Source: a virus (taxonomy: Duplodnaviria > Caudoviricetes). From it: DNA of 31,827 bases. Position 1 is the first letter of the stretch; each line of letters begins with the position of its first letter. The notes under the pieces are model-generated. The model made no database searches and was not told the DNA's origin. It saw nothing but the letters and a program-made list of their open reading frames with translations. A program made the position numbers and the translations under genes. Positions 4,056 to 31,827 of the stretch are shown here, piece by piece. Location: positions 1 through 31,827 of IMG/VR virus record IMGVR_UViG_3300020045_004367; one strand, given 5' to 3'.

Positions 4056-5216
4056 ATGTTCGAAGATTGGGGAAATGGGATGGTTATAGACACGTCAACC
4101 GGCGATGTTTATGATTCCAATTCAGCGGAATACTTAGGCAATGATTCTGCCAGTTACTTTGGTCAGGATTATGTTAGCGCCGGATCAGAAAACAGCCCTT
4201 ACGGGGGCTGGAGTGCGCCAGATTACTCTGTTGCCGGGGATGGCTCGGTTACGTTCACAGACGGCACTGTTGTCAATGCAGATGGCAGTATATCAACAGG
4301 TGGGCAGACTTACACACCGGATCAGGTCAAGGCAGACCCTAGCCTGTTTGATAAGATCAGCGGGGTGGTCTCCAACTCTAACTTTTTGAAAGCCGCCGGG
4401 ATTATAGGCACTGGCCTTGCCGGTCAATATTTCAACAACCAAGCCGGAGCCGCAGGAGCCGCCGCAGGACAGACCGCACTTAACGCACAGCTTGCCGGGG
4501 CCAACACAGCCGGACAGCTTAACCGTGAGCAGTTCGAATATCAAAAACTTCTTAATGAGCCGTTCTACAACAAAGGTTTGTCTGCGTTTAATCAGTACAA
4601 CTCAGCAGTAACCGGGGAAAAGTACATTGACCCGAACTATCACAAACTAACCCGCGAAGAGGGCGACGCGCTCAACTACGCCTATCGGGAAAGAATGGGC
4701 ATCCCGTGGGACGCAAGCAACGGAGGACAGACCACCTACAACGGTATGCCGGTCAATGACCCGCTGATAGCAGCTTATCGAGGGCCGGACGGAACATACA
4801 CCGGGCAGCCGCCAGTTATCTCATGGACTCCCACGGAATCACCCGCTTACAAGTGGCAGCAGGAACAGGCCAACAAGAACAACAGCCGCACCCTCAGGGC
4901 GTTAGGCCGTGAAAACAGCTCTTACGGTATGGGGGAGCAGTTCAAGACACAGCAGAACCTAGCTGCTAGTGAATACGACCGGCAGTTGGGGCGTTTAGCC
5001 GATATGACCAACATCGCCAGGGGTGGCGCGTCTGCTTTGACAGGTGCATCAAATACCTACGGCACACAAGCTAGCAACAACGCTATTACCAGCGCGAACA
5101 ACACGGCGAACAACGCTCTGATGGGCGGCGTACTTGCACAGAACAACGCACAGAACAATATCAGCAACCTGTACGGGACTGCAAATCTAGGTTTGAAAGC
5201 CTTTGGCATACAATAG
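4056..5216 (+). CDS. DNA transfer/ejection protein (P22 gp7/gp20-like position)
   Basis: Ala/Gln/Asn-rich, with ESPAYKWQQEQ...LAASEYDRQLGRLA typical of podoviral pilot proteins; GGAGG RBS. Confidence 0.65.
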   Translation: MFEDWGNGMVIDTSTGDVYDSNSAEYLGNDSASYFGQDYVSAGSENSPYGGWSAPDYSVAGDGSVTFTDGTVVNADGSISTGGQTYTPDQVKADPSLFDKISGVVSNSNFLKAAGIIGTGLAGQYFNNQAGAAGAAAGQTALNAQLAGANTAGQLNREQFEYQKLLNEPFYNKGLSAFNQYNSAVTGEKYIDPNYHKLTREEGDALNYAYRERMGIPWDASNGGQTTYNGMPVNDPLIAAYRGPDGTYTGQPPVISWTPTESPAYKWQQEQANKNNSRTLRALGRENSSYGMGEQFKTQQNLAASEYDRQLGRLADMTNIARGGASALTGASNTYGTQASNNAITSANNTANNALMGGVLAQNNAQNNISNLYGTANLGLKAFGIQ

Positions 5217-5224
5217 GGGGCATT

Positions 5225-6811
5225 ATGGCAGAAGTGGATTACCTCAGATATGCTCAGTTGATGGGCCAGCGCAACCCGGTAGGTGAAGGTTTAGCGCAAC
5301 TAGGCCAGACACTTGACGATAACCGCCGCTATGACCTGCAAAAACAGCAGATATTACGTCAGAACCGGCTAGCGGATATGCAACTACAGCAGGGGCAAAT
5401 GACGCTTGATGAGGCAAAGCGCAAGCAGGATGCCCGCGAACAGCTCAGAACCGGTCTTGCTGGACTGCAACCTACTTCAAACCCCGCTTTTCAGGCGCAG
5501 CAGGCAGCGCACACACCGGAGGCGCTGAACTACGACCGCATGACTCCCGCGGCTAGGCAGTTCGCGCAGACAGAAGCCGGGCCGGGTAGCGACGTGGTAA
5601 AGGGCCAGCGAGACTTAGCCGTAGCATCGGCACCCGCAAAAGCTCCCGCGGTAGCGCCAGACCCTATCCCGTTAATTCTGGATTATGCTATCCGCACCGG
5701 CAATTACGATGAAGCTAAAAACGCAGTGTCGTTGGACGGTATCATGAGGAAACGACAGGCAGAAGCTAGCGCATACGGCGACCTTGCCACGGCAGATAAA
5801 CTTGAAGTCGAGATAAGCCGGATAGACAAGATCGGTAGCATGGTCAAGAAACTGAGGGAAGCCGACAAAACCGGGGGGCTGGTCAAGGAGTACGTCACTG
5901 CCCATCCTGAGATTTTCCAAGGGATCGACCCTAGCAAGATCGGCGTGCAGAATGACATGGTTGAAATGAAGGGCGCAGGCTACACGCTGGTAGTTGGGCC
6001 GGATGGTAAAAGTCATATAGTCAAGGATGCCAACGAGACAAAGGGTTTCGATACCGTGGATATGGGCGACAGGATTAAATACATCCCCCGCGACGGTTCA
6101 CCGGCTTATTACGAGAAGAAAGGCATCACACCCGGCGCAGCAGCCAGGATAACCATTAATCAGGGTGGCGGCGATAGCGAAGATGTAGCAGCATGGGCCA
6201 AAGCTGTAAAAGAAGGCCGCGCAAACCTTGCCGACGTTCCCAACCGTGGAACAGTCAGAAGCCGAGTAGTGAAAATGATAGAGCAGGGCGGCGGGGCGGA
6301 TTATGCCGCCAACAAGTCAGACAACGCCGGATTCAACGCATCTATCACTCAACAGCAAAAACAAGTTGGTGCAATGGGCAGTTTTGTTAAAAATATGGAC
6401 TCGCAAATATCAAAAGTCAGTGAACTATCGAAAAGGCTGTCTACTTTCGATACGCGCCTGTTGAACGTCCCGTTACGCGCCGTTAGAGGCCGCATTGCAG
6501 GTTCAGCCGACCAGGCTAAATACGATATGTACCTGACAGAGATCGAAAGCGAAATAGGCAAACTCGCAACAGGATCGGCGGGGAGTGTGTCGGAATTGTC
6601 CGTCGGAGCTCAGCAGAAATGGGAGAAGATCCACGACAAGAATCTTTCCATCAAAGATATGCTTTCGTTACTACAGGAGACGCGAGAAGCCGGGAAACTG
6701 AGGATGAAATCAGTACAAGACCAACTCGGAGAAACAAGATCGCAAATGAGGAACAGAGGCGGAACAACCACACCACCGAAAGCTAACAAAGATCCACTTG
6801 GTATCCTATAA
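5225..6811 (+). CDS. Internal virion / DNA ejection protein
   Basis: 528-aa helical Q/A-rich ORF between other ejection-like genes, ending DPLGIL. Confidence 0.6.
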   Translation: MAEVDYLRYAQLMGQRNPVGEGLAQLGQTLDDNRRYDLQKQQILRQNRLADMQLQQGQMTLDEAKRKQDAREQLRTGLAGLQPTSNPAFQAQQAAHTPEALNYDRMTPAARQFAQTEAGPGSDVVKGQRDLAVASAPAKAPAVAPDPIPLILDYAIRTGNYDEAKNAVSLDGIMRKRQAEASAYGDLATADKLEVEISRIDKIGSMVKKLREADKTGGLVKEYVTAHPEIFQGIDPSKIGVQNDMVEMKGAGYTLVVGPDGKSHIVKDANETKGFDTVDMGDRIKYIPRDGSPAYYEKKGITPGAAARITINQGGGDSEDVAAWAKAVKEGRANLADVPNRGTVRSRVVKMIEQGGGADYAANKSDNAGFNASITQQQKQVGAMGSFVKNMDSQISKVSELSKRLSTFDTRLLNVPLRAVRGRIAGSADQAKYDMYLTEIESEIGKLATGSAGSVSELSVGAQQKWEKIHDKNLSIKDMLSLLQETREAGKLRMKSVQDQLGETRSQMRNRGGTTTPPKANKDPLGIL

Positions 6812-8619
6812 TGGGCGAACTTGCACAGAAAATAAGGGCTAAGTATCCCGGCAGCTACGATGCTTTGCCTGATTCGGAATTAGAGGCAAAGATTACAGCC
6901 AAGTATCCCGGTGTTTATGACCACCTGACAAGTGAATGGCGCACTGGCACCGGGGCGAAGGCCGGAGCAACACAGGCGGATTTTCTCAGGGATGAAGGGA
7001 CAACCGGCACAAAGTTACGCCAGAGTTTTAAAGATACGCCTGCAATGGATTATGTAAAGGAACCTGCACGCTTTGCCGCTGAAACTGCCTTAATGCCGCT
7101 GAACGCATTAGGCAGGGGGTTGAAGTCCGTTGCATCCACGGTACAAGGTGGCGGCGAAGCAATCCGCACAGGTTCTATTGACGCAGGCTTGCAGAGATAC
7201 CAGCAGAAACAAGCAGAGTTCCAGCCTGTTCAATCGCCAATGGCACCGTCTGCAATGGGCAACATGATAGCAGCAGGCGCACAGAAAGGCATAAACAAGC
7301 TGTCAGACCTCACCGGCAGACCGGACATAGTTGAACCTGTTGCACAGGGAGCTATGGATATAGGGGCGCTTGCAGGGCTGAAAGCTGCTACACCGGCATT
7401 ATCAGCCGGAGTTAGAGCGGGAGGCCGGGGACTGGTAGATTTAGCAGGCGGCACCGCTGCAAAGATCGGAATAACCCCTGAAAAGATGTACGCCAGTTCA
7501 CTAAAACAATCCACCGTGATACCGATGGAGCAACGGGCGGCCAATGTCAAAGCGGGATTAGAAGGCGGATATGTTCCTAATAAAAAGGGTCTCAATAGGC
7601 TTTATAACGACATTAACGAAATAAACGGACAGATAGGCGCTGTTATCGAAGAAGCCGCCACAAGGGGCAAGCAGGCGGATGCAACGCCATTTATAAATGA
7701 GATAAAAGCCATTGATACAGCTATTGCAGGAGAACAAACAAGGGCGGTAGTACAGGCGCAAAACAAGGCGATACAACAGCACATGATCCGCAACGAGGGC
7801 GGACACTGGATGCAAAAAACAAACATTCCCGATGCGTCCTATTTTGCTAATCTTCGCAAGGCATATGATGCTTTACCACCTGAAAAGCAGATACAGGGAG
7901 GCTTACCATCTCCCGAAACGGTTTCATCGCCTGTCATAGATAATTTTATCGCCAAAAAAACGCAGTTACAGAAAGCCGTTGAAGAATCAGCACCAACTGG
8001 CAAAACTATCAAAGTTGACGATATATTGACGAGACTAGAAGATGTTAAACAACGGGCTATTGATTCTTTCGGAGACAATAACCCTGCCTTGAGATCCATC
8101 AAAGGGTTTGAGAAGTCTTTGAAAAACCATCCTTCTGTTGTCAACGGAGAAATACCAATTGACATAGCACAACAGATGAAAACCAACACCTACAAACAAC
8201 TTAAAAATGCCTACGGGGAGCTGAAAGGCTTTGAGGTCGAAGCAAAGAAGGCTATGGCAAGGGGCGCGAAGGAAGAGATTGTGGCACAGATACCAGAACT
8301 TGCGGCTTTGAATGCCAAAGACTCCACGCTAATCAACTTGGAAAAGGTCTTATTCAAAGCCGTCAATCGTATTGAAAATCGCGACATGATGGGCATAGGC
8401 GTACCGATTAAAGCACTTGCCGGCGGGCAGGCAGGCGTTAAAGGGATGTTTATAGGGACGCTATTAGGACTTATAGACACGCCAACCATCAAAGCCAACC
8501 TTGCCATAGCCATGCACAAAGCAAGAGGGAAGTCAGTCCCAAAAACAGAAATCAACACCCTTGTCCAAAAAATGCAGGCGGGGCTATTAGCGAGACAAAC
8601 ACAAGGAGAACAACCATGA
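6811..8619 (+). CDS. Large internal virion / DNA ejection protein
   Basis: 602-aa helical Ala-rich ORF with an N-terminal repeat (KIRAKYPGSYD / KITAKYPGVYD); 1-nt overlap with the previous stop. Confidence 0.6.
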   Translation: MGELAQKIRAKYPGSYDALPDSELEAKITAKYPGVYDHLTSEWRTGTGAKAGATQADFLRDEGTTGTKLRQSFKDTPAMDYVKEPARFAAETALMPLNALGRGLKSVASTVQGGGEAIRTGSIDAGLQRYQQKQAEFQPVQSPMAPSAMGNMIAAGAQKGINKLSDLTGRPDIVEPVAQGAMDIGALAGLKAATPALSAGVRAGGRGLVDLAGGTAAKIGITPEKMYASSLKQSTVIPMEQRAANVKAGLEGGYVPNKKGLNRLYNDINEINGQIGAVIEEAATRGKQADATPFINEIKAIDTAIAGEQTRAVVQAQNKAIQQHMIRNEGGHWMQKTNIPDASYFANLRKAYDALPPEKQIQGGLPSPETVSSPVIDNFIAKKTQLQKAVEESAPTGKTIKVDDILTRLEDVKQRAIDSFGDNNPALRSIKGFEKSLKNHPSVVNGEIPIDIAQQMKTNTYKQLKNAYGELKGFEVEAKKAMARGAKEEIVAQIPELAALNAKDSTLINLEKVLFKAVNRIENRDMMGIGVPIKALAGGQAGVKGMFIGTLLGLIDTPTIKANLAIAMHKARGKSVPKTEINTLVQKMQAGLLARQTQGEQP

Positions 8620-8963
8620 AAAAACTTATCATCGCCGCAATCATCTTAACCGCTGCAACCGCATTAGCAAAAGGGCCGCTACAGAAAGAAACCGGAGTAA
8701 AGGCCGTTATCCAAGGTTTCGCGCCGGACGGTACAAAGTCCACTGCAGTGACGGCACTTATCAGCACGACCGTGGATGCGTCAACGAGTGCGGCGTTCTC
8801 TATTTATTGCGCGGCTGATTCCAAAATCCGCTTGATGCCAACTAGCGCCAAAAGCACGTACAAACAGAACACTATCCCCGGCGGCAGTTGGTACACTAGG
8901 GTAGTAAATGCAAATACTCCCTTTGTAAACTACAGCGGAGCTTGTGAATTGCAGTTAGATTAA
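8616..8963 (+). CDS. Hypothetical exported protein (signal peptide)
   Basis: Sec-type leader MKKLIIAAIILTAATALA; AGGAG RBS; ATGA overlap. Confidence 0.7.
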   Translation: MKKLIIAAIILTAATALAKGPLQKETGVKAVIQGFAPDGTKSTAVTALISTTVDASTSAAFSIYCAADSKIRLMPTSAKSTYKQNTIPGGSWYTRVVNANTPFVNYSGACELQLD

Positions 8964-8972
8964 GGGGGGATC

Positions 8973-10952
8973 ATGGGAACATACGCAAAGGTTTTTGAAA
9001 CACTCTTAACATCACAGCGGGCCAGCGGAGTCACGCTATCGGGCGGGAAGGTGCATTTCTATGTTCCAGGTTCGGTAACGACTTACAAAGCCATTTATGC
9101 CGACAGGGGCAAGCAGACACCAGCCGCCAATCCTTACACGCTGAGCGCAGACGGCACAGCCTCAATTTACGGCGATGGGCTGTATGACGTGATCCTTAAG
9201 ACGGCAGCAGGCGCAACAGTGACAACGTGGGAAGACGTGTCATTAGTGGACATATCCGGCGATGAGACATCAATCGCCAACTATGCCGACCTTGCCGCCG
9301 CCGTAGCTGCTATCGGGTCAACAAAGACCACCATGGTTGTGAGTACGGACCAGGCTGTAACTGCTGATTTGACCGTCCCGTCAACTATGGCTCTGAAATT
9401 GGTCAACGAGGCCAAAATCACCGTATCATCTGGCAAGGTTCTGACCATCAACGGGCCGTTTGACGCTCCCGCAGTTCAGGCGTTCGCCGGAACAGGTACG
9501 GTGGTTTTCGGACAAGGGTCTACAGACAGAATCTATCCGCAATGGTGGGGGGCAAAAGGCGACGGAACAAATGACGATACATCGGCGGTACAATCCGCGT
9601 TAAATGCGGCTTTTGGGTCATTCATTACTTACTATGCCCCTGCCGGTGTGTATAAGATCACTGCAAGCATAACCCCTACGTTAGCAAATATGCGCGGGGC
9701 TTCCAACTCCCCCGGTGGTTCTATTATGTCTGGTGCGGGAATGGGGGCTACTCAATACCTCTACACTCCTACCTCTGGCATAGCGTTTAACTTTACGGTC
9801 AATCAAAACCACGTTGATTCTATATTGTGCCAGGACTTCGCAATTAGAATAAACGACCCGACCGGCGCATCATCGGCTAGTTGCATGAAGCTACCTCAAG
9901 GGGGCGGCCAGAGATTCCATCGGGTACATTTCGACGGGGCCGGGGCTACGGGTGGCATAGGGCTGGACCTTGACGGACTCTACAATAGCGGCCTTTACAG
10001 CTACCATGTCGTTGTTTCCGAGTGCCGATTTGCCAACGGCGCCGGTCAGAACACATGGATTAACGCTAACGGCGTGTTAGATTTGGTTATTGACAAGTGT
10101 TTCATGTCGGTACTCACCGGGGATTACGGTATTAGGGTGGATAATTGCCGTTCTGTATGTATCGAAAACAATCAGTTAGAAACATATCACAGCGTTGCTG
10201 TTATTCCGACTCAACATCTTATTTATGCAACTGACACATTTGTCATGGACGTGCGGGACAACTGGTTTGAAGGTGCGTCTCATGTGAGTTGCTTTCGTAT
10301 CGGGGCGGGATGCCGGGGTGTTCAGGTCAATAGATCGTATTACTATCACGACAATTCCGCTACAGGGTCTTTGATTTACAACGAATGCGACGAAAACGTT
10401 ACAGTAGACACGCTTGTTTACCAGAACGTGAGTAATGTAGAGGCACCTGTTGCAGCAGGAACAAGGCCGATACTTTACACACTATCATCTGACTCTATTG
10501 TATTTAGAGGTACTTACACACGGCTTTATGACAATGGTAAGCAACTTGGCGCACATTATGGATTCGACAACCAGCAGACTGTTTTAGCAAGTGCGGCACC
10601 TTCCATCGCAGCGGGTTTCTACCTTCCGTCACAAGGGCAGTACCTTGTATCTGTAACAGTAGAAAGCGCCGATGGGGTGAACAGGGCGGCGCAATCTTTT
10701 TATGTATCGTTGTTGGGGGCTGATCCTTACGCAGCAGAGATAATGCCGGTAGCAAATACCTACACCATAGTAATAACAACAGGAACACCGGATACTGGAG
10801 TGATTAGCAACGTACCTGTGCTTAATGCGATAGGCGCCAACAAACCTACCGCAATCAGCGTTGCTTATGTCGCCAACACTCAATTTTCCATTGGGGCAAC
10901 AGTACCAATAAATACCGATTGGACATTTAGATGTAAGGTCACTGCAATATAA
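8973..10952 (+). CDS. Tailspike / receptor-binding protein with pectate-lyase-like beta-helix
   Basis: N-terminal anchor (GGKVHFYVPGS...ANPYTLSADG.A.IYGDGLYDV), then WWGAKGDGTNDDTSAVQSALNA and YAPAGVYKIT (Pectate_lyase_3-type cap), followed by Asn/Cys-ladder repeats. Confidence 0.85.
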   Translation: MGTYAKVFETLLTSQRASGVTLSGGKVHFYVPGSVTTYKAIYADRGKQTPAANPYTLSADGTASIYGDGLYDVILKTAAGATVTTWEDVSLVDISGDETSIANYADLAAAVAAIGSTKTTMVVSTDQAVTADLTVPSTMALKLVNEAKITVSSGKVLTINGPFDAPAVQAFAGTGTVVFGQGSTDRIYPQWWGAKGDGTNDDTSAVQSALNAAFGSFITYYAPAGVYKITASITPTLANMRGASNSPGGSIMSGAGMGATQYLYTPTSGIAFNFTVNQNHVDSILCQDFAIRINDPTGASSASCMKLPQGGGQRFHRVHFDGAGATGGIGLDLDGLYNSGLYSYHVVVSECRFANGAGQNTWINANGVLDLVIDKCFMSVLTGDYGIRVDNCRSVCIENNQLETYHSVAVIPTQHLIYATDTFVMDVRDNWFEGASHVSCFRIGAGCRGVQVNRSYYYHDNSATGSLIYNECDENVTVDTLVYQNVSNVEAPVAAGTRPILYTLSSDSIVFRGTYTRLYDNGKQLGAHYGFDNQQTVLASAAPSIAAGFYLPSQGQYLVSVTVESADGVNRAAQSFYVSLLGADPYAAEIMPVANTYTIVITTGTPDTGVISNVPVLNAIGANKPTAISVAYVANTQFSIGATVPINTDWTFRCKVTAI

Positions 10953-15705: not shown

Positions 15706-16908
15706 TTATTTAAAACTCGATAAGAAACTTTCGGCAAACTTATCTGTTGCCTTCCTGATATGTTCCCTTGAAATATGCCCGTACAAATCTTTCGTGATTG
15801 ATATGCTGGCGTGCTGTAGGATTTCCGACAGGGTGCTTAAATCGCCGCCCTCCAAACCACCAGTACCCATGAGGTAATGGCTGGCATAAGTATGACGGAG
15901 CGAGTGAAAACTAACGTCCGTGAACTCGCAAGCCTTGATTGTCTTATCCCATTCCGTTCTGAATCGTACCATTGTTTCCTGACCTGACTTATCAGGGAAC
16001 AGGTAACGAGACAGGGGGCGTTTCTTCCACTCTTTCAAAACCTCTATTAGATGCTCCGGTATATCCACAGTATGCGGTTTAGTGGATTTCATTTTGTGCC
16101 CTGGGATCTCGATCAACCTTTTCGACAGTCTCACCTCTGCCCAAGTCAGATTAAGCACGTTCGATTTACGAAGTCCGGTGTTTAGTGCAATCAATGTTGC
16201 CATTTTGACTTCCGGCGTGGTCGCTTTCTCAAGCAAAAGAGTAATTTCGCTCTCCGTCAAATATCGGGCTTTCTGAGACGATTTCTTCAATAAAGCAACT
16301 CTTGCTATGTCCATACTCTTTCCGCACAGTCTAGGGGATTCCTCCGCGCTCGTTCTGGCAACATGAAGCGAGTATATTCTTTTCAATGCCTTAATTTCGT
16401 GATTGATGGTTGACGGGGCAATATCTTCCTCTGTTCGGGCGGTGGCATAGTCCAGAACGTCAGCCTTGCGAATGGTCAACAGGGTTTTCTCTCCAAAGTA
16501 TTCCGTGAGGGGAACCATTTGCCATTTGTAGTAATCAGCGGAAGATTGTTTCAGCAGTCTTTGCTTGACGGCATCTGCCCACCACTTCGTGCAATCCTTG
16601 ACCGCCTGACTCCACGGTATGTCCTGTTCACCCTGTTCCTTCTTGGGCGGCTCCACCATGAACGTGCCGTTCTTGATCTTGACTTTGCACTCTGCCAGGT
16701 AATCTTCTGCGTCTCGTCTGCGGGGAGATACGGATTTAGTGTAGAGCTTGCCCTTGTACGTGAGTCTCACTTGCCAGTTCTCTGCTATGTATAGTTCACC
16801 ACTACACTTAGGACAGCAACCCTTGTGTTTACCTGATGTTGTGGCCGTTCTATATGCACAGGATTTGGTTTTGCAGAGCACGAACTTAAAGATAGATTTC
16901 TCATTCAT
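15706..16908 (-). CDS. int: Phage integrase, tyrosine recombinase
   Basis: TGLRKSNV (Arg I), K, FHSLRHTYAS (HxxR), ILQH and catalytic Tyr in DLYGH; SAM-like core-binding region (PSTINHEIKALK); close to attP. Confidence 0.95.
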   Translation of the reverse strand: MNEKSIFKFVLCKTKSCAYRTATTSGKHKGCCPKCSGELYIAENWQVRLTYKGKLYTKSVSPRRRDAEDYLAECKVKIKNGTFMVEPPKKEQGEQDIPWSQAVKDCTKWWADAVKQRLLKQSSADYYKWQMVPLTEYFGEKTLLTIRKADVLDYATARTEEDIAPSTINHEIKALKRIYSLHVARTSAEESPRLCGKSMDIARVALLKKSSQKARYLTESEITLLLEKATTPEVKMATLIALNTGLRKSNVLNLTWAEVRLSKRLIEIPGHKMKSTKPHTVDIPEHLIEVLKEWKKRPLSRYLFPDKSGQETMVRFRTEWDKTIKACEFTDVSFHSLRHTYASHYLMGTGGLEGGDLSTLSEILQHASISITKDLYGHISREHIRKATDKFAESFLSSFK

Positions 16909-17999: not shown

Positions 18000-18167
18000 A
18001 TGGAACCACCAAAATACGAGACAATGAAGCTGGCAACAGCGGCACCCCTGTATGACGTTAAGCTATCAACGCTCAAGATGATGTGCCTAAAGAACAAAGT
18101 AAAAAGCAAGTTGGTCGGCGGTCATCGTTATGTGACCCCGGCTGAGATGGATAAGGTTTTTAAATAA
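18000..18167 (+). CDS. Excisionase-like winged-HTH protein (55 aa)
   Basis: Not in the ORF track. MEPPKYETMKLATAAPLYDVKLSTLKMMCLKNKVKSKLVGGHRYVTPAEMDKVFK fits the HTH_17/Xis pattern; basic and divergent from int. Confidence 0.65.
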   Translation: MEPPKYETMKLATAAPLYDVKLSTLKMMCLKNKVKSKLVGGHRYVTPAEMDKVFK

Positions 18168-18278
18168 CGTTTTGAGCATGACCGGGGAGGATGAAAATGA
18201 ACGAAGGCAATCAAGTAGAAGAATCAAGGCGCGAACAGATCGAGGGGAGTTGGCCTCCGGTCGATGCGCTGGTTATAT
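18162..18278. mobile_element. Integron attC-like recombination site 1
   Basis: AAATAAC (18162-18168)...GCATGACCGG (18176-18185)...CCGGTC-G-ATGC (18257-18267, one extrahelical base)...GTTATAT (18272-18278). Confidence 0.75.
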
Positions 18279-18643
18279 CCGTTCGGCAACCGTGGGCATG
18301 GCTGATTATCAATGCTGGTAAGGACATCGAGAATCGGGACTGGTTCACTAAAGTTCGTGGCCGCGTCTTCATTCATGCCTCGAAGGGAATCACAAAGCGG
18401 GAATGGGCGGAAGCGTGGGACGCTGTACGGCACCTCTGCCCGGAAGCATGGGAAAAGGGGAAGCGGGAAATTCAGGCTGGCATGATCGAGCGCGGCGGCA
18501 TCATCGGCAGTGTTGAAATCGTGGATTGTGTGAGCAAGTCAGATTCTCCGTGGTTTTTCGGAAAATACGGCTTTGTGCTGAGAGATCCGCAACCGATGGA
18601 GTTTCAGCCGTGCAAAGGGCAACTAGGGTTTTTTAGGATATAA
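18191..18643 (+). CDS. ASCH domain protein
   Basis: ISVRQPWAWLIINAGKDIENRDW...RGRVFIHASK...GGIIGSVEIVDCV...PCKGQLGFF. Confidence 0.92.
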   Translation: MKMNEGNQVEESRREQIEGSWPPVDALVISVRQPWAWLIINAGKDIENRDWFTKVRGRVFIHASKGITKREWAEAWDAVRHLCPEAWEKGKREIQAGMIERGGIIGSVEIVDCVSKSDSPWFFGKYGFVLRDPQPMEFQPCKGQLGFFRI

Positions 18644-18691
18644 CGGGTCAAGCATCACCAGCCATAAGCTGAGTGCACCCGATGGTTATAA
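18638..18691. mobile_element. Integron attC-like recombination site 2 (short, partly degenerate)
   Basis: ATATAAC-GGGTCAA-GCATCACCAGC-CATAA-GCTGAGTGCACCCGATG-GTTATAA; same box spacing as site 1. Confidence 0.65.
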
Positions 18692-18707
18692 TCCGTAAGG
18701 GGGATTT

Positions 18708-19133
18708 ATGAAATCACTAGCAAGAAAGTTTTACAACGAGACGGCAAGACTTGAAAATATGGTGTTACTGGCAAGCGTACTTGGAGAAATTGACTCCATG
18801 CCTGAGGTGATGGAAGAGGACTTTTTGCAGGAGGGTATTGAAGATATGGTGTCTTGTTTCGGGCCAATGCCGGATGAAATCAAAGAGGCTTACGAGTTGG
18901 AAGATTATTCCGAGTTCCTTGGCTGGCTACTCGACAATGACCGTTTCGGATTCCTGCTCAAGTTTGCAACTCCGGTGATGAAACCAAGCGCAAGCGGTAA
19001 CGGTGCATCGTATTCATGGGGCCATTACCGCATGAAGTGGGTATACGGTGATACTCTGGATGCTGCGCTAGATTCTGGTTTCGCATGGGTTGAAGAGTGC
19101 CGAAATATGGAAAAGGCGGAAGCAGGATTATAA
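18708..19133 (+). CDS. Hypothetical acidic protein (cassette-borne)
   Basis: 141-aa ORF with AAGGGGG RBS; its stop codon is the TAA of a TAAC box. Confidence 0.75.
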   Translation: MKSLARKFYNETARLENMVLLASVLGEIDSMPEVMEEDFLQEGIEDMVSCFGPMPDEIKEAYELEDYSEFLGWLLDNDRFGFLLKFATPVMKPSASGNGASYSWGHYRMKWVYGDTLDAALDSGFAWVEECRNMEKAEAGL

Positions 19134-19146
19134 CCATAGATTATAC
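19128..19146 (-). mobile_element. attI-like simple site
   Basis: Minus strand reads GTATAAT-CTATG-GTTATAA (7-5-7 architecture), with no adjoining attC hairpin. Confidence 0.5.
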
Positions 19147-19186: not shown

Positions 19187-19510
19187 ATGTATCGTTACAG
19201 ATCGAAGGGCAGCCAGCGTTTCAATGAACGAATGCGGCGCTGGCGCGAGGCGAAAGAACGTATTAGGCTGGAAGGGCCAGCGCCGGTCTATCCATACGAG
19301 CCACCAGAGATAAGGCGCAGGATAGTTGTCGAAGATTATGATTACAATCGGACGGTGCGGCACGAGTTCGTACTGTTGAAATCAAACAGGATTGACTCGT
19401 ACCACGTAGCCGTGGACGGCAAGCTACTCCCTGGCCGTATCGGATGGGCGAAGATTTTAGAGTTGATACGCAAGGCGTTCATCAGGGCAACGACAAGAGT
19501 ATTTGAATAA
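19187..19510 (+). CDS. Hypothetical basic protein
   Basis: 107-aa Arg-rich ORF with GGAGG RBS. Confidence 0.65.
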   Translation: MYRYRSKGSQRFNERMRRWREAKERIRLEGPAPVYPYEPPEIRRRIVVEDYDYNRTVRHEFVLLKSNRIDSYHVAVDGKLLPGRIGWAKILELIRKAFIRATTRVFE

Positions 19511-19519
19511 GGAGGCACC

Positions 19520-19669
19520 ATGCCAGCACCAAAGAAATCTGCACCACGCTACAACGTAGTAAATGGCCGCCTGAGCGACGAAGAGATGGCGGCAGTCATG
19601 GCAGCTATCAAACAACGGGGCATAAAGATCACGGAGTACGTCAGAGAGTGTGTGTTGCGGGGGATGTAA
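19520..19669 (+). CDS. Ribbon-helix-helix regulator, HgtR-like (49 aa)
   Basis: Not in the ORF track. AAGGAGG RBS; MPAPKKSAPRYNVVNGRLSDEEMAAVMAAIKQRGIKITEYVRECVLRGM has a beta-alpha-alpha RHH pattern. Confidence 0.7.
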   Translation: MPAPKKSAPRYNVVNGRLSDEEMAAVMAAIKQRGIKITEYVRECVLRGM

Positions 19670-23954: not shown

Positions 23955-24361
23955 GTGAAATCCGCGAGATGTTGAGTGATATGAGGACGGCGGAAATCAG
24001 GACATTCGGCGGGGTAGCGGCTCGGAATCCGCTAGGTGACAAGATTCAGTATTTTGGCCCTGATGGACTGTTTTCAATACCTGCTATCCGCGCTTATGGC
24101 CGCTTTATGAGGGAACATAGGAAGATGGAAGGGACCGATCAGCTACGTAATTATAATAACTGGCGGCAGGGTAAAGGTCTCCCGCAGAACGTGTGCATTG
24201 ATTCAATGGGTAGGCACCTTCTCGACCTCGCTGAATTGCTGGAAGGGACGGACGTTGTAGACGAGTCCACCGGCAAGCAAGTGACCGTCACCGAGGCATG
24301 TTGTGCGATCATATTCAACGCTAATTCAATCTTGGACAACGAAGTTAAGGGTAACATCTGA
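23951..24361 (+). CDS. dATP/dGTP diphosphohydrolase-domain protein (DUF5664-like)
   Basis: RTF.G.A.R...K..Y, RNYNNWRQG.G.P...IDSMGRHL and CAIIFN pattern. Confidence 0.7.
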   Translation: MSEIREMLSDMRTAEIRTFGGVAARNPLGDKIQYFGPDGLFSIPAIRAYGRFMREHRKMEGTDQLRNYNNWRQGKGLPQNVCIDSMGRHLLDLAELLEGTDVVDESTGKQVTVTEACCAIIFNANSILDNEVKGNI

Positions 24362-25188
24362 TGCACCAAACATCATTATTTAATGATATACAAGAATACC
24401 CACCTGACCTATATCGTCCATTTTTAACTGCGACAGAAAACGGGAAAGGGGTATTAGATGTTGACACCGTAAAGGGATGTACTCTTGGACTTGCAGCTTA
24501 TCCTAATGGCGGTTGCTATGGTGAGTGTTACGCATACAAAACGGCACACAGATACGGCATTGACTTTAAGCAATCAGTAAGCAGAAAGCTGTTCCGGTCA
24601 AATAGAACTGATGTTTTTATCATAGTTAAAGACCATAGCGCAGGGTGGTACAGAGTTGGAACGGCTGGTGATCCTTGCCATGATTGGGATAACACTATCG
24701 AAGTGTTACAGTTTTTACGCAGAACAAATAAGATTCCGGTAATTATCACAAAACACTGGATAACACTTACTGACAACCAGCTTGATAAACTTAAAGACCT
24801 GGGGGCAGTTGTTAATACCTCAGTAAGCGCATTAGACACCGAAGAAGAATTAAATCACAGAATAGAGCAAATAGGCCGTATAAAGTACGCAGGCATTAAA
24901 AGCATAGTGAGGGTAGTTACCTGCTGTTTTAGCACCACAGAAGGATCTATACAGCGCCAAGCAACACAGGACTATCTACTGTCTTTCAATAATGTAATCG
25001 ACAACCCATTAAGAGCATCAAAATTAAATGAATATGTGAAAAGGGGTGATATTCTATTAAATAAAAAAGGTGGTTGGACAGGAAACGGGGCCGGTAACAT
25101 TTCATTGCACTCAGAGAGTGTCTATCTAGGAACTTGCGGCGGTTGTCCAGATCAATGTGGAGCCGATCATGCAAAGAAAGGGATTTAA
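24361..25188 (+). CDS. Radical-SAM-like protein with atypical Cys spacing
   Basis: DTVKGC-x11-CYGECYA, RVGTAGDP, VIITK, SVSALD and C-terminal CGGCPDQC. Confidence 0.7.
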   Translation: MHQTSLFNDIQEYPPDLYRPFLTATENGKGVLDVDTVKGCTLGLAAYPNGGCYGECYAYKTAHRYGIDFKQSVSRKLFRSNRTDVFIIVKDHSAGWYRVGTAGDPCHDWDNTIEVLQFLRRTNKIPVIITKHWITLTDNQLDKLKDLGAVVNTSVSALDTEEELNHRIEQIGRIKYAGIKSIVRVVTCCFSTTEGSIQRQATQDYLLSFNNVIDNPLRASKLNEYVKRGDILLNKKGGWTGNGAGNISLHSESVYLGTCGGCPDQCGADHAKKGI

Positions 25189-25189
25189 A

Positions 25190-26581
25190 ATGACGCAGGA
25201 ATCATTGTTTAAACAGGAAGTTGAATACCTTTATGTGCCGATGGTTATCGGTTCGGGGTATGAGCAGATTGTGGCAGAGTTGGCTATTGCTGATAAAATA
25301 GCGTACAGGGCCGCGCGTAAAAACATGCAGATACATTCTGCTATCATCCTCAAAATTGATGGCGAAGTATGCGGGTTTTTCACATTCCAGAACAACCAAG
25401 AAGTAAAAGAGTTTTGCCTCCTGCAATCCACAATCCGGCCTGATAAGTTTGACTTTGATATTTATGACAACATGGTAAAGGCAATCATAGACCGTAATGT
25501 AAACGGCTATCCAATGATTATCACCACAGACCCAAAAAGCAAATTTGAAACACCAAAGCGTTTTAAGAGTCTTGGTTTCAAAACATATCTTACTATGTCC
25601 GGCTACGAATACATGGTGTACGGTGATGAAAAAGATGTTCGCATGAAACTGCTGGCACACATAACCATGACAAACGTGTGGAATTCTTTGAAAGGCGATT
25701 GGCTACGCCTCAAAAAAGAATGGAACACACAGATTGAAGAGGCCGGTGAAAAACATGGCATACCCAACCCCAAATTTGCATCCCGTGAAGGATGCTGGCA
25801 AGGGGAAAGCGGCTTTTCGAATGTCGTACTTTCAACCCGTACTGTTGAAGATGGGGAGATTGTCACCAACAAAGAGAAGTCACACAACGGCAACGCCTCA
25901 GTACTCGACCCTGTAGCCTGTGAAGTTATCTTGCGGTTCTTTATGCCAACAAATGGGACAAGGGTTTATAACCCATTTGGAGGCGGTGTCCAGATGGGGT
26001 TTATCGCCGGGGCGTATGGTTATGATTATATCTCAAGCGAGATCAGGCAAAACCAATGCGACACCAACAACGCAATATGTCAAGACCTACCGGGTTCTGC
26101 TAGGTGGATTAAAAGTGACAGTTCAACGTACATGCCACCTGAAAAAGTAGACATGGTTTTCAGTTGTCCCCCGTATTACCGCGTTGAAAAATACATTGAC
26201 TATGATGGCAAGTCACCGGACGGAGAAATTAACTCAATTGATACTTATGAGGGTTTCCGAGACACGTTATTCTCCGGTTACAAAAAAGCAATCGAAAGCA
26301 TGAACGATAATTGTTTCTTTATTGTTATGACCGGAGATAGCAGGGATAAAAACGGTTGTTACCATTGCCACGAATCCGAGACAGAGATATTTTTCAAAGA
26401 ACAAGGCCTTTCTGTCTACAACAAAATAATCTATTTGGAGTGCGAATTTACACGCCTTGCACAGGCCAAAAAAACACTTAACTACCGTAAATTTCCAAAG
26501 CGTGAACAGAAGATTATTGTCGCTTACAAAGGCGACCCAACGGTTATTAAAGATTTATTCCCACCAACAGGGAGACTCTAA
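25190..26581 (+). CDS. DNA amino-methyltransferase with N-terminal GNAT-like domain
   Basis: SAM-binding VYNPFGGG and catalytic-type FSCPPYY. N-terminal IDGEVCGFFTF...FKSLGFKT is GNAT-like. ATG 25190 lies 2 nt after the previous stop. Confidence 0.75.
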   Translation: MTQESLFKQEVEYLYVPMVIGSGYEQIVAELAIADKIAYRAARKNMQIHSAIILKIDGEVCGFFTFQNNQEVKEFCLLQSTIRPDKFDFDIYDNMVKAIIDRNVNGYPMIITTDPKSKFETPKRFKSLGFKTYLTMSGYEYMVYGDEKDVRMKLLAHITMTNVWNSLKGDWLRLKKEWNTQIEEAGEKHGIPNPKFASREGCWQGESGFSNVVLSTRTVEDGEIVTNKEKSHNGNASVLDPVACEVILRFFMPTNGTRVYNPFGGGVQMGFIAGAYGYDYISSEIRQNQCDTNNAICQDLPGSARWIKSDSSTYMPPEKVDMVFSCPPYYRVEKYIDYDGKSPDGEINSIDTYEGFRDTLFSGYKKAIESMNDNCFFIVMTGDSRDKNGCYHCHESETEIFFKEQGLSVYNKIIYLECEFTRLAQAKKTLNYRKFPKREQKIIVAYKGDPTVIKDLFPPTGRL

Positions 26582-27500: not shown

Positions 27501-27919
27501 TGGAATGCCCTAAATGTCACGCCAAGATGAGAAATATCAACTCCAGCATCGGCAGCGCATACCACGGCGCAGAGTCGTCGCCAACTATCACGTCAGGCTG
27601 GAGCTGCGAACCGGCTGGATGCGGAGCTTGGATAGATGCCAATGACCCGCCTGTCTGCCCCATGCCGCCGAAAGAACATACCCGCCACCCTGATGGCAAA
27701 GGCGGCTTTATCCGCCAAATAAATCATCTGACCGGGCTAGACAGGCTAGTTTGGGATTACCGTAACACAATCAGGGCAATGGGCAGAACGCCAAAAGAAA
27801 TAGCAACCAAGTTGAATGAATTGCGCCCAGGGTCACGATTAAATGGTAATATGGTGGCGGCAAGTTTGAACAGGTTGGAGAACGGCCAAATCGAGAAGAA
27901 AGTGAGGGAGGAAGCATGA
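27500..27919 (+). CDS. Hypothetical Zn-ribbon protein with possible C-terminal HTH
   Basis: GTG start overlapping the previous TAG; CPKC...CEPAGC; RTPKEIATKLN. Confidence 0.55.
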   Translation: MECPKCHAKMRNINSSIGSAYHGAESSPTITSGWSCEPAGCGAWIDANDPPVCPMPPKEHTRHPDGKGGFIRQINHLTGLDRLVWDYRNTIRAMGRTPKEIATKLNELRPGSRLNGNMVAASLNRLENGQIEKKVREEA

Positions 27920-28632
27920 ACAACGAAATAGCAGTTATCGCAGTAACACCGATGGACTTAATCAGCCGGGCGCAAGCGTCAAACGCCAGTATTGAACAGA
28001 TGCAACAACTCTTTACGCTTCAACTGAGGTGGGAGGAAAACGAGGCAAGGAAAGCGTATTACAAGGCGGTTGCTGATTTCAAATCCGAAGCCGTGGACAT
28101 CATCAAAAATAAGAAGGTGTCATACCGCACCGACAAGGGTGTGACGGAATACAACCATGCCGAACTCGGCCAGATCGTAAACACTGTAACCCCCTTCCTT
28201 TCCCAAAATGGACTTTCCCACCATTGGGAATACTCGCAGATTGACGGCAAGGTCAAGGTGACGTGTTTCCTCACTCACGACATGGGGTACGAGAAATCAA
28301 CATCACTGGAAGCGCCACCGGATACATCGGGCGGGAAGAACGGGATACAGGCCATTGGTTCGACCACAAGTTACCTTGAGCGATACACCTTTCTTGCTAT
28401 GACTGGGCTTGCTTCTAGGGAACAGGACGATGACGGCAGGAGCGCAGGGAAAGCAGCAGTAGAAACCATCACCGAAGCACAAGCAAAAGACCTGTTGGCC
28501 CTAATAGCCGAGGTCAAGGCCGATGTTGCTAAGTTCTGTACCTACTACAAGGTCAACGCTGTAACCGGCCTTCCCGCAGCCAAATACGACCAGGCTGTGA
28601 AAAACTTGGAAGCAAAGAGAGGGGATAAATAA
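27916..28632 (+). CDS. ERF-family single-strand annealing protein
   Basis: YNHAELGQI...CFLTH...QAIGSTTSYLERYTFLAMTGLA...DDDG. Confidence 0.9.
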   Translation: MNNEIAVIAVTPMDLISRAQASNASIEQMQQLFTLQLRWEENEARKAYYKAVADFKSEAVDIIKNKKVSYRTDKGVTEYNHAELGQIVNTVTPFLSQNGLSHHWEYSQIDGKVKVTCFLTHDMGYEKSTSLEAPPDTSGGKNGIQAIGSTTSYLERYTFLAMTGLASREQDDDGRSAGKAAVETITEAQAKDLLALIAEVKADVAKFCTYYKVNAVTGLPAAKYDQAVKNLEAKRGDK

Positions 28633-28712
28633 TGGAACCTATGGTCATGCCGGGATATCCGAGAAACATGCGCAACTTGTTATTACCGCTATCGTAGGAG
28701 GTTTGGTCAATC

Positions 28713-29363
28713 ATGTCAGAATCAATTACTAAATATCCATGCGGCAAAATATACGCAGACGTTGAACAGGGCAAGCCGGAATGGTTTGCAATCAAGTGCG
28801 GAATTATCAGCGGTTCCAGAATGGCCGATGTCATGCAAGAAAAAAAAGGCACCGGCTATGAAAATTACCTGGCTCAGTTGGCGTGTGAACGGTTGACGAA
28901 TTGCGTCACTCCGACATTCAAGAATGATTATATGGATCGTGGTAGCGAGGACGAATCACCGGGCCGTGAATGTTTTGAATTTATCACTGGATACACTGTT
29001 GAGCAGGTAGCCTTTATCAAGCATCCCTTTATTGAGAATTTCGGGATATCGCCTGACGGATTGATCTGCGCTGCCGGTATGTGCGAAATCAAGCGAAAAA
29101 TTCCGGCTTTACATCAAAAGTATCTCAGGGAAAAGCGAGTCCCGCCTGAATATCTAAAGCAGATGCATTCACAGATGGCGTGCTCAGGCAGGGAATGGAA
29201 CATATTCGTTTCATATTGTCCCGAAATGCCAGCGGAACTACAGATTTTTCAATGTCGGTTGGAACGCGACGACCATTATATCAAAGAGATTGAGTCATCC
29301 GTTATCCAGTTTGACAAGGAAGTTGAAAAGAGAATCGCGGAACTAAAGGCGCTTATCCCATGA
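28713..29363 (+). CDS. YqaJ-like (lambda exonuclease family) viral recombinase nuclease
   Basis: EQGKPEWF..K.G.ISGS, MDRG..DE, GISPDGL, EIK, Y..QM..QM. Confidence 0.92.
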   Translation: MSESITKYPCGKIYADVEQGKPEWFAIKCGIISGSRMADVMQEKKGTGYENYLAQLACERLTNCVTPTFKNDYMDRGSEDESPGRECFEFITGYTVEQVAFIKHPFIENFGISPDGLICAAGMCEIKRKIPALHQKYLREKRVPPEYLKQMHSQMACSGREWNIFVSYCPEMPAELQIFQCRLERDDHYIKEIESSVIQFDKEVEKRIAELKALIP

Positions 29364-31089: not shown

Positions 31090-31520
31090 ATGTATGACCT
31101 AAGACCATACCAAGAAAAAGCGGTTGACCAAATTCGCCGCCTGATAGTGTCAGGCAAAAAGTCAATCATGATTCAGTCGCCTACCGGAAGCGGGAAGGGT
31201 GTCATGCTTTCCCATATCATCCACTCAGCCAACATGAAGGGCAAATCAGTTTTGTTTCTTGTCCACCGTAGCGAAATCCTTTTTCAAGTCTCTGACTACA
31301 TGGACAAGTACGAAATTACCCATGGCATAATTAAGGCCGGAGAACAGGCCAACTACACCCATCCGGTACAACTTGCCTCATTTCAAACCATCATACGGCG
31401 TATGAGTTTTTTTCAAGAGACATTCGACGTTGTAATTATCGACGAAGCCCACCACGCCACCGCTGCCACATACATCAAGGTTATCAAGGCTTTCCAAAAA
31501 CAGATTATTTTAGGCTTTTC
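31090..31520 (+). CDS. SF2 DEAD/DEAH-box helicase, 5' part (interrupted by inversion)
   Basis: LRPYQ, SPTGSGKG (Walker A), LVHR and IIDEAHH. Motif III (SATP) continues only on the minus strand at 31692-31521. Confidence 0.9.
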
Positions 31521-31827
31521 GTTATAGTCACCTGCTTTGAGTTTAACATCTTTAAGGTCAGGCTCTACGGGAGCAAAGTACCGAATGGGGGCAAGAAAAC
31601 CCAAGTCCGTTAGGTTTTGGATCGTCTCAACCTGCACCATTGAATCAAATAGGTTGCCTAATCCCATGCCGTTTTTACGGGTAGGTGTGGCAGAAAAGCC
31701 TAAAATAATCTGTTTCTGGAAAGCCTTGATAACCTTGATGTATGTGACAGCGGTGGCGTGGTGGGCTTCGTCGATAATTACAACGTCGAATGTCTCTTGA
31801 AAAAAACTCATACGCCGTATGATGGTT
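31386..31827. repeat. 135-bp inverted duplication (fold-back) at the window end
   Basis: 31386-31520 is the reverse complement of 31693-31827 with 2 mismatches; 172-bp spacer. Confidence 0.95.

What the first reader, a model, noticed from the sequence alone, without database searches (positions are those of the whole stretch)
18162..19146. Phage-borne miniature integron: two gene cassettes with attC-like sites and no IntI
Seen: three consecutive genes (xis-like, ASCH, hypothetical) stop on the TAA of a TAAC box. The first two boxes open imperfect hairpins closing at GTTAT with identical spacing (AAC-N7-GCAT...N4-GTT) and extrahelical bases. Each cassette has perfectly complementary ends: GTTATATCC (18272-18280) with GGATATAAC (18636-18644), and GTTATAATCC (18685-18694) with GGATTATAAC (19125-19134). 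Known: complementarity of core and inverse-core sites across a cassette is the footprint of IntI-mediated insertion of a circular cassette at G/TT. The extrahelical base sets the canonical orientation on the minus strand (ATATAAC-CAGCG-CATCGACC), so the ORFs are inverted relative to attC, as I recall for inverted-integrase integrons of Treponema and deltaproteobacteria. The phage Int lacks the IntI-specific insertion between patches II and III. Inference: the phage keeps a cassette landing pad in an early operon and borrows a host IntI to acquire and shuffle genes.
Basis: partly seen in the sequence, partly recalled or inferred. Interest (0 to 1): 0.88.

Follow-up and report, generated by a model that had tools for sequence, protein, structure and literature searches.

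The report
Phage dock for backwards integron cassettes
A temperate phage carries two small genes as integron-type cassettes, facing backwards, at a docking site that ten other phages fill with different genes; the 32 kb seen holds no integron integrase, so it likely borrows one from its host or from another phage to reshuffle its early genes.

Summary
Real. 18162-18278 and 18638-18691 are attC-type sites. They are the two best window hits of a model built from Geobacteraceae chromosomal attC (26.8 and 16.1 bits); site 2 is damaged. The third box, 19128-19146, is an attI. The same box precedes a homologue of the 107-aa gene (19187-19510) in 10 of 10 other phage contigs, with 10 different sequences joined at its AAC. 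It also precedes the intI of many phages that encode their own IntI inside the early operon. Both genes recur in unrelated phages, with homology ending at the AAC boxes. The genes face backwards relative to attC, unlike host integrons, phage TJE1 and Treponema; ASCH starts inside its hairpin. A complete 58-kb phage with this platform has no IntI, so the enzyme likely acts in trans. No recombination was observed. Phage CALINs are published (Qi 2023); my 10 paper searches found no description of the inverted class, the phage IntI clades or the attI/107-aa module. This scan noted the inverted class earlier on other DNA (unchecked notes).

The parts
18000..18167 (+). 55-aa small gene (xis-like by position and look; no Pfam or PHROG hit); its TAA lies in the distal R box
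18162..18278 (+). attC 1 read on its predicted recombinogenic (+) strand: AAATAAC, 8-nt spacer, CATGACC (18177-83), loop holding RBS and ATG of the ASCH gene, GGTC[G]ATG (18259-66, extra G 18263), 5-nt spacer, GTTATAT
   Evidence: 26.8 bits, E 2.5e-4; pfold 0.13; same hairpin in L185 and L194, with a compensatory C-G to A-T change in L194
18168..18643 (+). cassette 1, 476 bp (hairpin plus ASCH gene), inferred crossover AA|C on + (G|TT on -)
   Evidence: homology with L185 runs from the AAC at 18166-68 to the AAC at 18642-44; three different hairpins follow in window, L185 and L181
18191..18643 (+). ASCH-domain gene; likely starts at ATG 18197 inside attC 1; the R box encodes V-I-S and the far box R-I-stop
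   Evidence: PF04266 and phrog_3193; variable N-termini in homologues
18638..18691 (+). attC 2, degenerate or hybrid: 8/5 spacers, extra C 18676, 7 of 10 R/L pairs
   Evidence: z -2.7; 16.1 bits, E 0.074; its 3' arm matches host sites with a matched 5' arm (L323, L325) and a groundwater contig
18644..19133 (+). cassette 2, 490 bp (hairpin plus 141-aa gene)
   Evidence: 10-bp end complementarity; same gene between complementary boxes in a Mu-like phage (L001)
18708..19133 (+). 141-aa hypothetical phage gene
   Evidence: 19 clusters; mostly an ordinary operon gene in 29 viral loci
19128..19146 (+). attI-type simple site TTATAAC-CATAG-ATTATAC (on the minus strand L box, 5 nt, G|TTATAA)
   Evidence: same box before the 107-aa gene in 10 of 10 contigs, before phage intI and before host short intI
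19187..19510 (+). 107-aa basic protein of no known family, in the slot that intI occupies in IntI-encoding phages
   Evidence: 108 clusters, no family; AlphaFold2 pLDDT 85, no clear fold match; 25 K+R
15706..16908 (-). ordinary phage integrase, not an IntI; probably not part of the system

Best explanation
This is a two-cassette integron array with its own attI but no intI, set in a phage early operon with the genes facing backwards, and it is likely loaded and reshuffled by an integron integrase supplied by the host chromosome or a co-resident prophage. Shown: the anatomy, the conserved attI, and exchange of genes at the AAC boxes among phages. Inferred from integron biochemistry: the coding (+) strand folds into the recombinogenic attC; IntI cuts at AA|C; a circle made of hairpin plus gene enters at attI, so the newest cassette sits next to the 107-aa gene and older ones are pushed upstream. 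Also inferred: because the genes are inverted, the phage's own early transcript would read them without a Pc promoter, and long hairpins bring the ribosome site and start codon along. The cargo is ordinary phage early genes that became cassettes. Site 1 is predicted active, site 2 weak.
For: A model trained only on 32 chromosomal Geobacteraceae attC ranks sites 1 and 2 first and second in the window, both on +; 47 of 47 hits in 33 phage or prophage loci lie on the anchor gene's strand. ASCH homology with L185, L181 and L173 ends at the AAC box; window and L185 share the upstream hairpin from its AAC onward, behind different genes. The 141-aa gene lies between complementary boxes in a Mu-like phage. 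All 10 other contigs with the 107-aa gene have AAC-N4/5-ATTA before it and 10 different upstream sequences; in 7 of the 8 with enough sequence a GTT box upstream is complementary to the attI flank over 9-13 bp. Around 78 viral IntI loci, 78 attC-like sites lie upstream on the intI strand, against 7 in the other three positions. ORFs between sites hit PHROGs in 13 of 36 cases on that strand and 0 of 32 on the other. Cassette-end complementarity is 8 bp or more in 25 of 37 neighbouring pairs, against 0 of 37 within a site. No IntI over the cut-off in 14 array-bearing viral records, including a complete 58-kb genome with terminal repeats. IntI is present in 54 of 121 Geobacteraceae genomes and between primase and terminase genes of prophages. 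IntI1 recombines phage attC sites in vivo (PMC9892861).
Against: No recombination event, circle or excision joint was observed; only assembled contigs were available. No empty version of this exact locus was found. Site 2 pairs only 7 of 10 R/L positions. ASCH alleles 91-96% identical to the window's carry a different upstream hairpin (L181, L173), which AA|C crossover alone does not explain. Close ASCH homologues without the boxes exist (L166, L193, L195). The contig is incomplete (no terminase or capsid gene recognised among the ORFs scanned), so an intI elsewhere in this phage is not excluded. The host is inferred only from homologues. The training sites were picked by my own scan for this architecture, and IntegronFinder/HattCI could not be run. 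A crude longest-ORF test was less clean: 19 plus, 11 ties, 7 minus.
Confidence: 0.76

Rival explanations
1. Frozen remnant: the array came from a phage integron whose intI was replaced by the 107-aa gene. The att sites now serve mainly as short shared linkers for the phage's own homologous recombination (ERF and YqaJ genes at 27916-29363) and as translation starts.
For: Site 2 is damaged or hybrid; hairpins are swapped among near-identical ASCH alleles; the two sites in L001 share their first 21 nt and have degenerate R boxes; no circles seen; ERF and YqaJ are present.
Against: Ten different sequences join the same attI exactly at AAC, with 9-13 bp cognate complementarity in 7 of 8, where only about 3 bases are shared; site 1 keeps its structure with compensatory changes; IntI-less complete phages keep 6-8 intact sites.
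Confidence: 0.14
2. The 107-aa protein or the phage Int, not an IntI, performs or directs the recombination.
For: The 107-aa gene follows the attI in 10 of 10 contigs, is the only one of 24 window genes shared with two other phages, and was not found in any IntI-bearing locus held.
Against: It is small, with no recombinase fold found; the Int lacks the IntI insertion; the att sites match those beside true IntIs; arrays also occur in records where no IntI was found and the 107-aa gene was not seen in the fetched flanks (L001, L009, L047, L048).
Confidence: 0.05
3. Stray host cassettes entered a secondary GWT (attG) site at random, as described for bacterial genomes; there is no landing pad.
For: IntI inserts cassettes at GWT sites, and small CALINs may arise this way (bioRxiv 10.1101/2022.09.11.507474, passages); attC types are shared with host integrons.
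Against: The insertion point is a conserved attI reused in 11 phages; the cargo is phage genes; the orientation is the reverse of most host cassettes.
Confidence: 0.04
4. Chance boxes or terminator-like hairpins between genes.
For: Site 1 has no unusual folding energy (z -0.5); 5 unrelated pairs in the window also reach 9 bp complementarity.
Against: Model hits, covariation and exact exchange boundaries; no + strand terminator called there.
Confidence: 0.01

Closest known systems
Phage CALINs and phage-borne integrons (Qi et al. 2023, PMC9892861; main text read through the conclusion, supplements not read)
   Same: Clusters of attC without intI in phage genomes (17 CALINs in 10,705 genomes); five of six tested sites were recombined by IntI1.
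   Different: Their model case TJE1 is canonical: genes on +, extra-base strand on -. Their complete integrons are captured chromosomal or class 1 elements with intI divergent from the cassette genes. In the text read there are no inverted ORFs, no phage-lineage IntI in an early operon and no attI tied to a non-integrase gene.
Sedentary chromosomal integrons of Geobacteraceae
   Same: attC with long 8-9/5-6 nt spacers and shared arm types; attI TAAC-N4-ATTAGAC before the short IntI; attC orientation relative to attI.
   Different: Host ORFs mostly point away from attI and end at R''; here they point toward attI and begin in or after their own hairpin. There is no intI.
Reverse (inverted-integrase) integrons of Treponema (PMC7691350, PMC3607928; passages)
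   Same: [quoted passage not shown]
   Different: There intI lies upstream of attI and ORFs stop on R'' followed by L''; here the order is cassettes, attI, then intI or the 107-aa gene, and it is the ORFs that are flipped.
attG insertion / SALINs (bioRxiv 10.1101/2022.09.11.507474; passages)
   Same: IntI acts in trans on cassettes outside a complete integron.
   Different: attG is any GWT; here a conserved attI is reused across phages.

Membership tests
Integron cassette array (attC/attI) | R boxes with invariant AAC/GTT closing an imperfect hairpin of about 57-141 bp | tested here: met
   117 and 54 nt; range from PMC5371416; site 2 is slightly short, like host sites of 47-54 nt
Integron cassette array (attC/attI) | Paired L boxes with an extrahelical base, site 1 | tested here: met
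   7 of 7 L pairs, extra G; pfold 0.13 within the 0.0007-0.83 of 13 host sites; compensatory change in L194
Integron cassette array (attC/attI) | Paired L boxes with an extrahelical base, site 2 | tested here: inconclusive
   4 of 7 L pairs, pfold 5e-4; 16.1 bits, E 0.074
Integron cassette array (attC/attI) | attI simple site (two inverted boxes 4-5 bp apart) at the end of the array | tested here: met
   19128-19146; same box before phage and host intI and before the 107-aa gene; spacing from PMC12614218
Integron cassette array (attC/attI) | Cassettes gained or lost exactly at G|TT | tested here: met
Integron cassette array (attC/attI) | Recombination depends on IntI and on the folded single strand | not testable with these tools
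   needs a recombination assay
Integron cassette array (attC/attI) | Hit of the IntegronFinder or HattCI attC model | not testable with these tools
   models not available; no Rfam hit; own model used instead
Complete integron | intI with the IntI-specific insertion beside attI | tested here: not met
   only a lambda-type Int in the contig
Canonical integron or CALIN geometry | ORF on the top strand, ending at R'', read away from attI | tested here: not met
   ORFs lie on the strand with the extra base on the 3' arm, the reverse of TJE1 and most host arrays
CALIN (two or more attC, no intI) | At least two attC within 3 kb and no intI nearby | tested here: met
   the contig is incomplete
Reverse integron (Treponema type) | intI upstream of and transcribed toward attI, cassettes canonical | tested here: not met
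attG/SALIN insertion | Insertion at an unconserved GWT site | tested here: not met
   conserved attI in 11 phages

The most novel reading that the evidence does not exclude
Temperate phages run their own branch of the integron system. Several virus-only IntI clades sit in early operons behind inverted arrays of phage genes. A mobile 'attI + 107-aa gene' module lets integrase-less phages use the same cassette pool, with the 107-aa protein recruiting or switching on a borrowed IntI. Hairpins that carry a ribosome site and start codon are fused to ordinary phage genes, which makes phages a visible site of cassette birth.
Probability: 0.3. Interest if true: 0.92.

Novelty: new variant of a known kind. 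Interest (0 to 1): 0.75.

Why it matters
Integrons are treated as bacterial, and attC sites in phages as rare hitch-hikers (21 of 10,705 genomes in PMC9892861). Here they look like a working part of phage evolution: a site-specific route to early-gene mosaicism, with a reversed design, phage-lineage integrases and integrase-less users. How cassettes are made is an open question in the integron field (own knowledge). This system gives paired examples of one gene family as a plain operon gene and as a cassette, with independent boundaries (L001 vs L009; window vs L047), and of one hairpin type heading unrelated genes (L443). That makes cassette genesis testable by comparative genomics. Shared attC types with host integrons imply two-way traffic between phage and chromosome pools.

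Tried and rejected
Rfam: no hit. No close relative of the phage Int in viral contigs, so no syntenic empty site was found; xis-like and DUF551 homologues were not found among the loci held. The first genome scan, with the 141-aa alignment, was empty. The metagenome pattern scan gave only 4 ASCH genes among 82 hits. The output was cut and about 14 of 80 ASCH loci were not read there; the scan covered all of them. The sigma-70 scan found no promoter upstream of the array. No RNA holder was listed. Laying two groundwater assemblies showed no excision joint; contigs cannot show absence. For the 107-aa protein: atlas blank; no clear match in PDB, BFVD or VIA (best Z 4.0); not found in 124 Geobacteraceae genomes, without a positive control; no earlier scan note by sequence or place. 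Complex prediction with a phage IntI alignment gave no answer (score 0.00) and is used neither for nor against binding. The IntI tree is the quick version (SH-aLRT, midpoint root; 104 rows after dropping duplicates, rows with stops, short matches and the window Int), so no origin or direction is claimed. The journal version of the attG paper is not held; the preprint was read in passages. Paper searches found no description of inverted phage arrays or phage IntI clades; most subscription journals are not covered, and the supplements of PMC9892861 (orientation of its other 14 CALINs) were not read. Rejected: the Treponema analogy, attG insertion and chance.

Full report
Setting. The window is a whole 31.8-kb virus record. 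It holds a head-closure gene, a GH19 lysin, a lambda-type integrase, two divergent HTH genes, and ERF, YqaJ, NinB and methylase-like genes; no terminase or capsid gene was recognised among the ORFs scanned, so it is probably incomplete. The closest ASCH homologues in genomes are from a Geobacteraceae, a Deltaproteobacteria and a Pelobacter bin (64-67%), and named homologues are from Geoalkalibacter. A Desulfuromonadia host is therefore an inference.

Observation. Coordinates and complementarities are exact: 9 bp across cassette 1, 10 bp across cassette 2, 5-6 bp for non-cognate pairs. Of 4631 comparable pairs in the window, 10 reach 9 bp, 3 of them in a terminal fold-back. On the + strand site 1 reads AAC, 8 nt, CATGACC ... 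GGTC[G]ATG, 5 nt, GTT: an extra G on the 3' arm, the layout of a recombinogenic attC bottom strand (established integron knowledge; features in PMC5371416). Its MFE fold is unremarkable (z -0.5), but the R/L-paired form has probability 0.13, inside the 0.0007-0.83 of 13 host sites. Site 2 pairs 7 of 10 positions, at 5e-4. The phage Int lacks the IntI insertion.

Are they attC? I collected IntI loci from the family of the Geobacteraceae bin: 54 of 121 genomes pass the TIGR02249 cut-off, with a short and a long type. In 25 fetched stretches (23 IntI loci), the attC-like sites found lay, with one exception, upstream of intI and all on its strand, often with 8-9/5-6 nt spacers like the window's. 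A covariance model from 32 such sites in chromosomal loci (87.8% paired cells, slid controls 20-46%) ranks site 1 (26.8 bits, E 2.5e-4) and site 2 (16.1 bits, E 0.074) first and second in the window, both on +. Caveat: the training sites were chosen by my own scan for this layout, and E-values are rough.

Do the cassettes move? The 141-aa gene occurs at 79% identity in a Mu-like phage between complementary boxes and two other hairpins. Three ASCH homologues at 90-96% have the same end boxes; a fourth at 76% has none (4 ASCH among 82 pattern hits). In the alignment homology ends at the downstream AAC, with different hairpins beyond it. Window and L185 share the upstream hairpin from its AAC onward, behind different genes. 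L194 has the same hairpin with a compensatory pair. Against a simple picture, L181 and L173 carry another upstream hairpin, so hairpins are also exchanged. Both gene families are mostly plain operon genes in phages: 2 of 29 loci for the 141-aa gene show att flanks, and among 80 ASCH loci, sites were seen in a few such as L039, L047 and L048 (cut, and 35).

The third box is an attI. All 8 viral homologues of the 107-aa gene found by protein and 2 more found by DNA pattern (12 hits, 2 of them chance without gene or AAC) have AAC-N4/5-ATTA directly upstream. The 10 upstream sequences differ, and homology starts at the AAC. In 7 of the 8 with enough sequence, a GTT box upstream is complementary to the attI flank over 9-13 bp; the eighth gives 6. 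The same kind of box precedes the short host intI. None of 14 array-bearing viral records has an IntI over the cut-off, among them a complete 58-kb genome with terminal repeats and 6-8 sites, a complete provirus, and records at 91% and 93%. Two of these phages share only the 107-aa gene among 24 window genes tested, so attI plus this gene travels as a module. Its protein is basic, has 108 clusters and no known family or fold.

Phages with their own IntI. Prophages in three genomes carry an intI co-oriented with the early genes, directly behind such an attI; in two of them it lies between primase and terminase, portal and capsid genes. These proteins keep the IntI insertion and the catalytic residues. 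A viral scan returned 78 loci, the best of 347 confirmed stretches. Of 85 attC-like sites around them, 78 lie upstream on the intI strand. ORFs between neighbouring sites hit PHROGs on that strand in 13 of 36 cases and on the other in 0 of 32; a crude longest-ORF test gave 19 plus, 11 ties and 7 minus, against 1, 5 and 5 for chromosomal loci. Cognate end complementarity reaches 8 bp in 25 of 37 pairs and within-site in 0 of 37. In a quick tree the viral IntIs form several virus-only groups (one of 22 rows, SH-aLRT 99) apart from the main host groups; two genome rows nest among viral ones. No 107-aa homologue was found in the IntI-bearing loci held. Among GenBank phages only 9 records match IntI.

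Translation start in the hairpin. ASCH begins inside attC 1, and its close homologues have unrelated N-termini up to L-V-I-S (17 of 45 have that motif and 13 of 45 end in FFRI). Of 45 long phage sites, 15 hold an RBS-like motif and an in-frame ATG in the loop, against a mean of 3.1 (maximum 9) in 200 loop shuffles. In L443 the site-1 hairpin type heads two unrelated genes.

Mechanism and comparison. The best reading (0.76) is an inverted cassette array with a real attI, served in trans by a host or prophage IntI; the chemistry is inferred, not shown. The main rival (0.14) is a frozen remnant now shuffled by homologous recombination. It works like an integron and is a CALIN by definition, but it is neither a complete, a canonical nor a Treponema-type reverse integron. 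TJE1, the published model phage CALIN, is canonical, and Treponema ORFs stop on R'' followed by L''. Papers seen: PMC9892861, main text through the conclusion; PMC8352920, abstract and passages; passages of bioRxiv 10.1101/2022.09.11.507474, PMC3607928, PMC12614218, PMC5371416 and PMC7691350. Ten searches found no account of the inverted phage class. Earlier unchecked notes of this scan describe it on other DNA; my reading was formed before I saw them, and they are not counted as support.

Verdict. Real; a new variant of a known kind; interest 0.75.

Noticed in passing
window 31406-31807: The contig end is an inverted copy of the preceding helicase stretch (60-bp perfect run; mirrored ORF 31413-31811), likely a fold-back assembly artefact.
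   Followed up: no
window 19519-19668; L281:17090-17213; L335: A 50-aa ORF that looks ribbon-helix-helix-like by eye follows the 107-aa gene; two phage IntIs have a C-terminal extension of similar look. No family hit for the window ORF.
   Followed up: no
L318, L320, L325, L329, L333, L334, between attI and intI: A conserved ORF of about 120 aa on the opposite strand sits between the array and the long-type Geobacteraceae IntI.
   Followed up: no
L429 (KX853513) 4680-9434: Virus Rctr41k's 'xerD' is an IntI-like protein followed by about five long attC-like sites in canonical orientation: a Treponema-like layout in a phage.
   Followed up: partly
window 18674-18712 against contigs in runs X1 and X2: Another contig shares the 3' arm, R box, RBS and ATG of site 2 but has a fully matching 5' arm and a different gene, suggesting that site 2 is a hybrid and that cassette scaffolds are reused.
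   Followed up: partly
L001 2927-2995 and 3417-3470: The two sites flanking the 141-aa gene share their first 21 nt, and both have degenerate GTT boxes.
   Followed up: no
L347, L353, L382, L387, L388, L392, L410, L416: Cargo of phage IntI arrays includes DNA methyltransferases, a Mom-like modifier, PAPS reductases, a radical SAM protein, DHH phosphoesterases and an HNH nuclease.
   Followed up: no
L303, L304: Genome IntIs that nest among viral ones; L303 has three sites on the intI strand, so it is probably a prophage.
   Followed up: partly
L381, L383, L401, L402: Viral intI matches with internal stops, i.e. broken integrases behind an attI or array.
   Followed up: no
window 236-298: Third model hit (13.1 bits, E 0.37): R boxes only, inside a virion gene; probably chance.
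   Followed up: no
window 24361-26581: A 275-aa cysteine-motif ORF followed by a 474-aa ORF with a weak N6/N4 methylase hit (E 0.0011): a possible DNA-modification pair.
   Followed up: no
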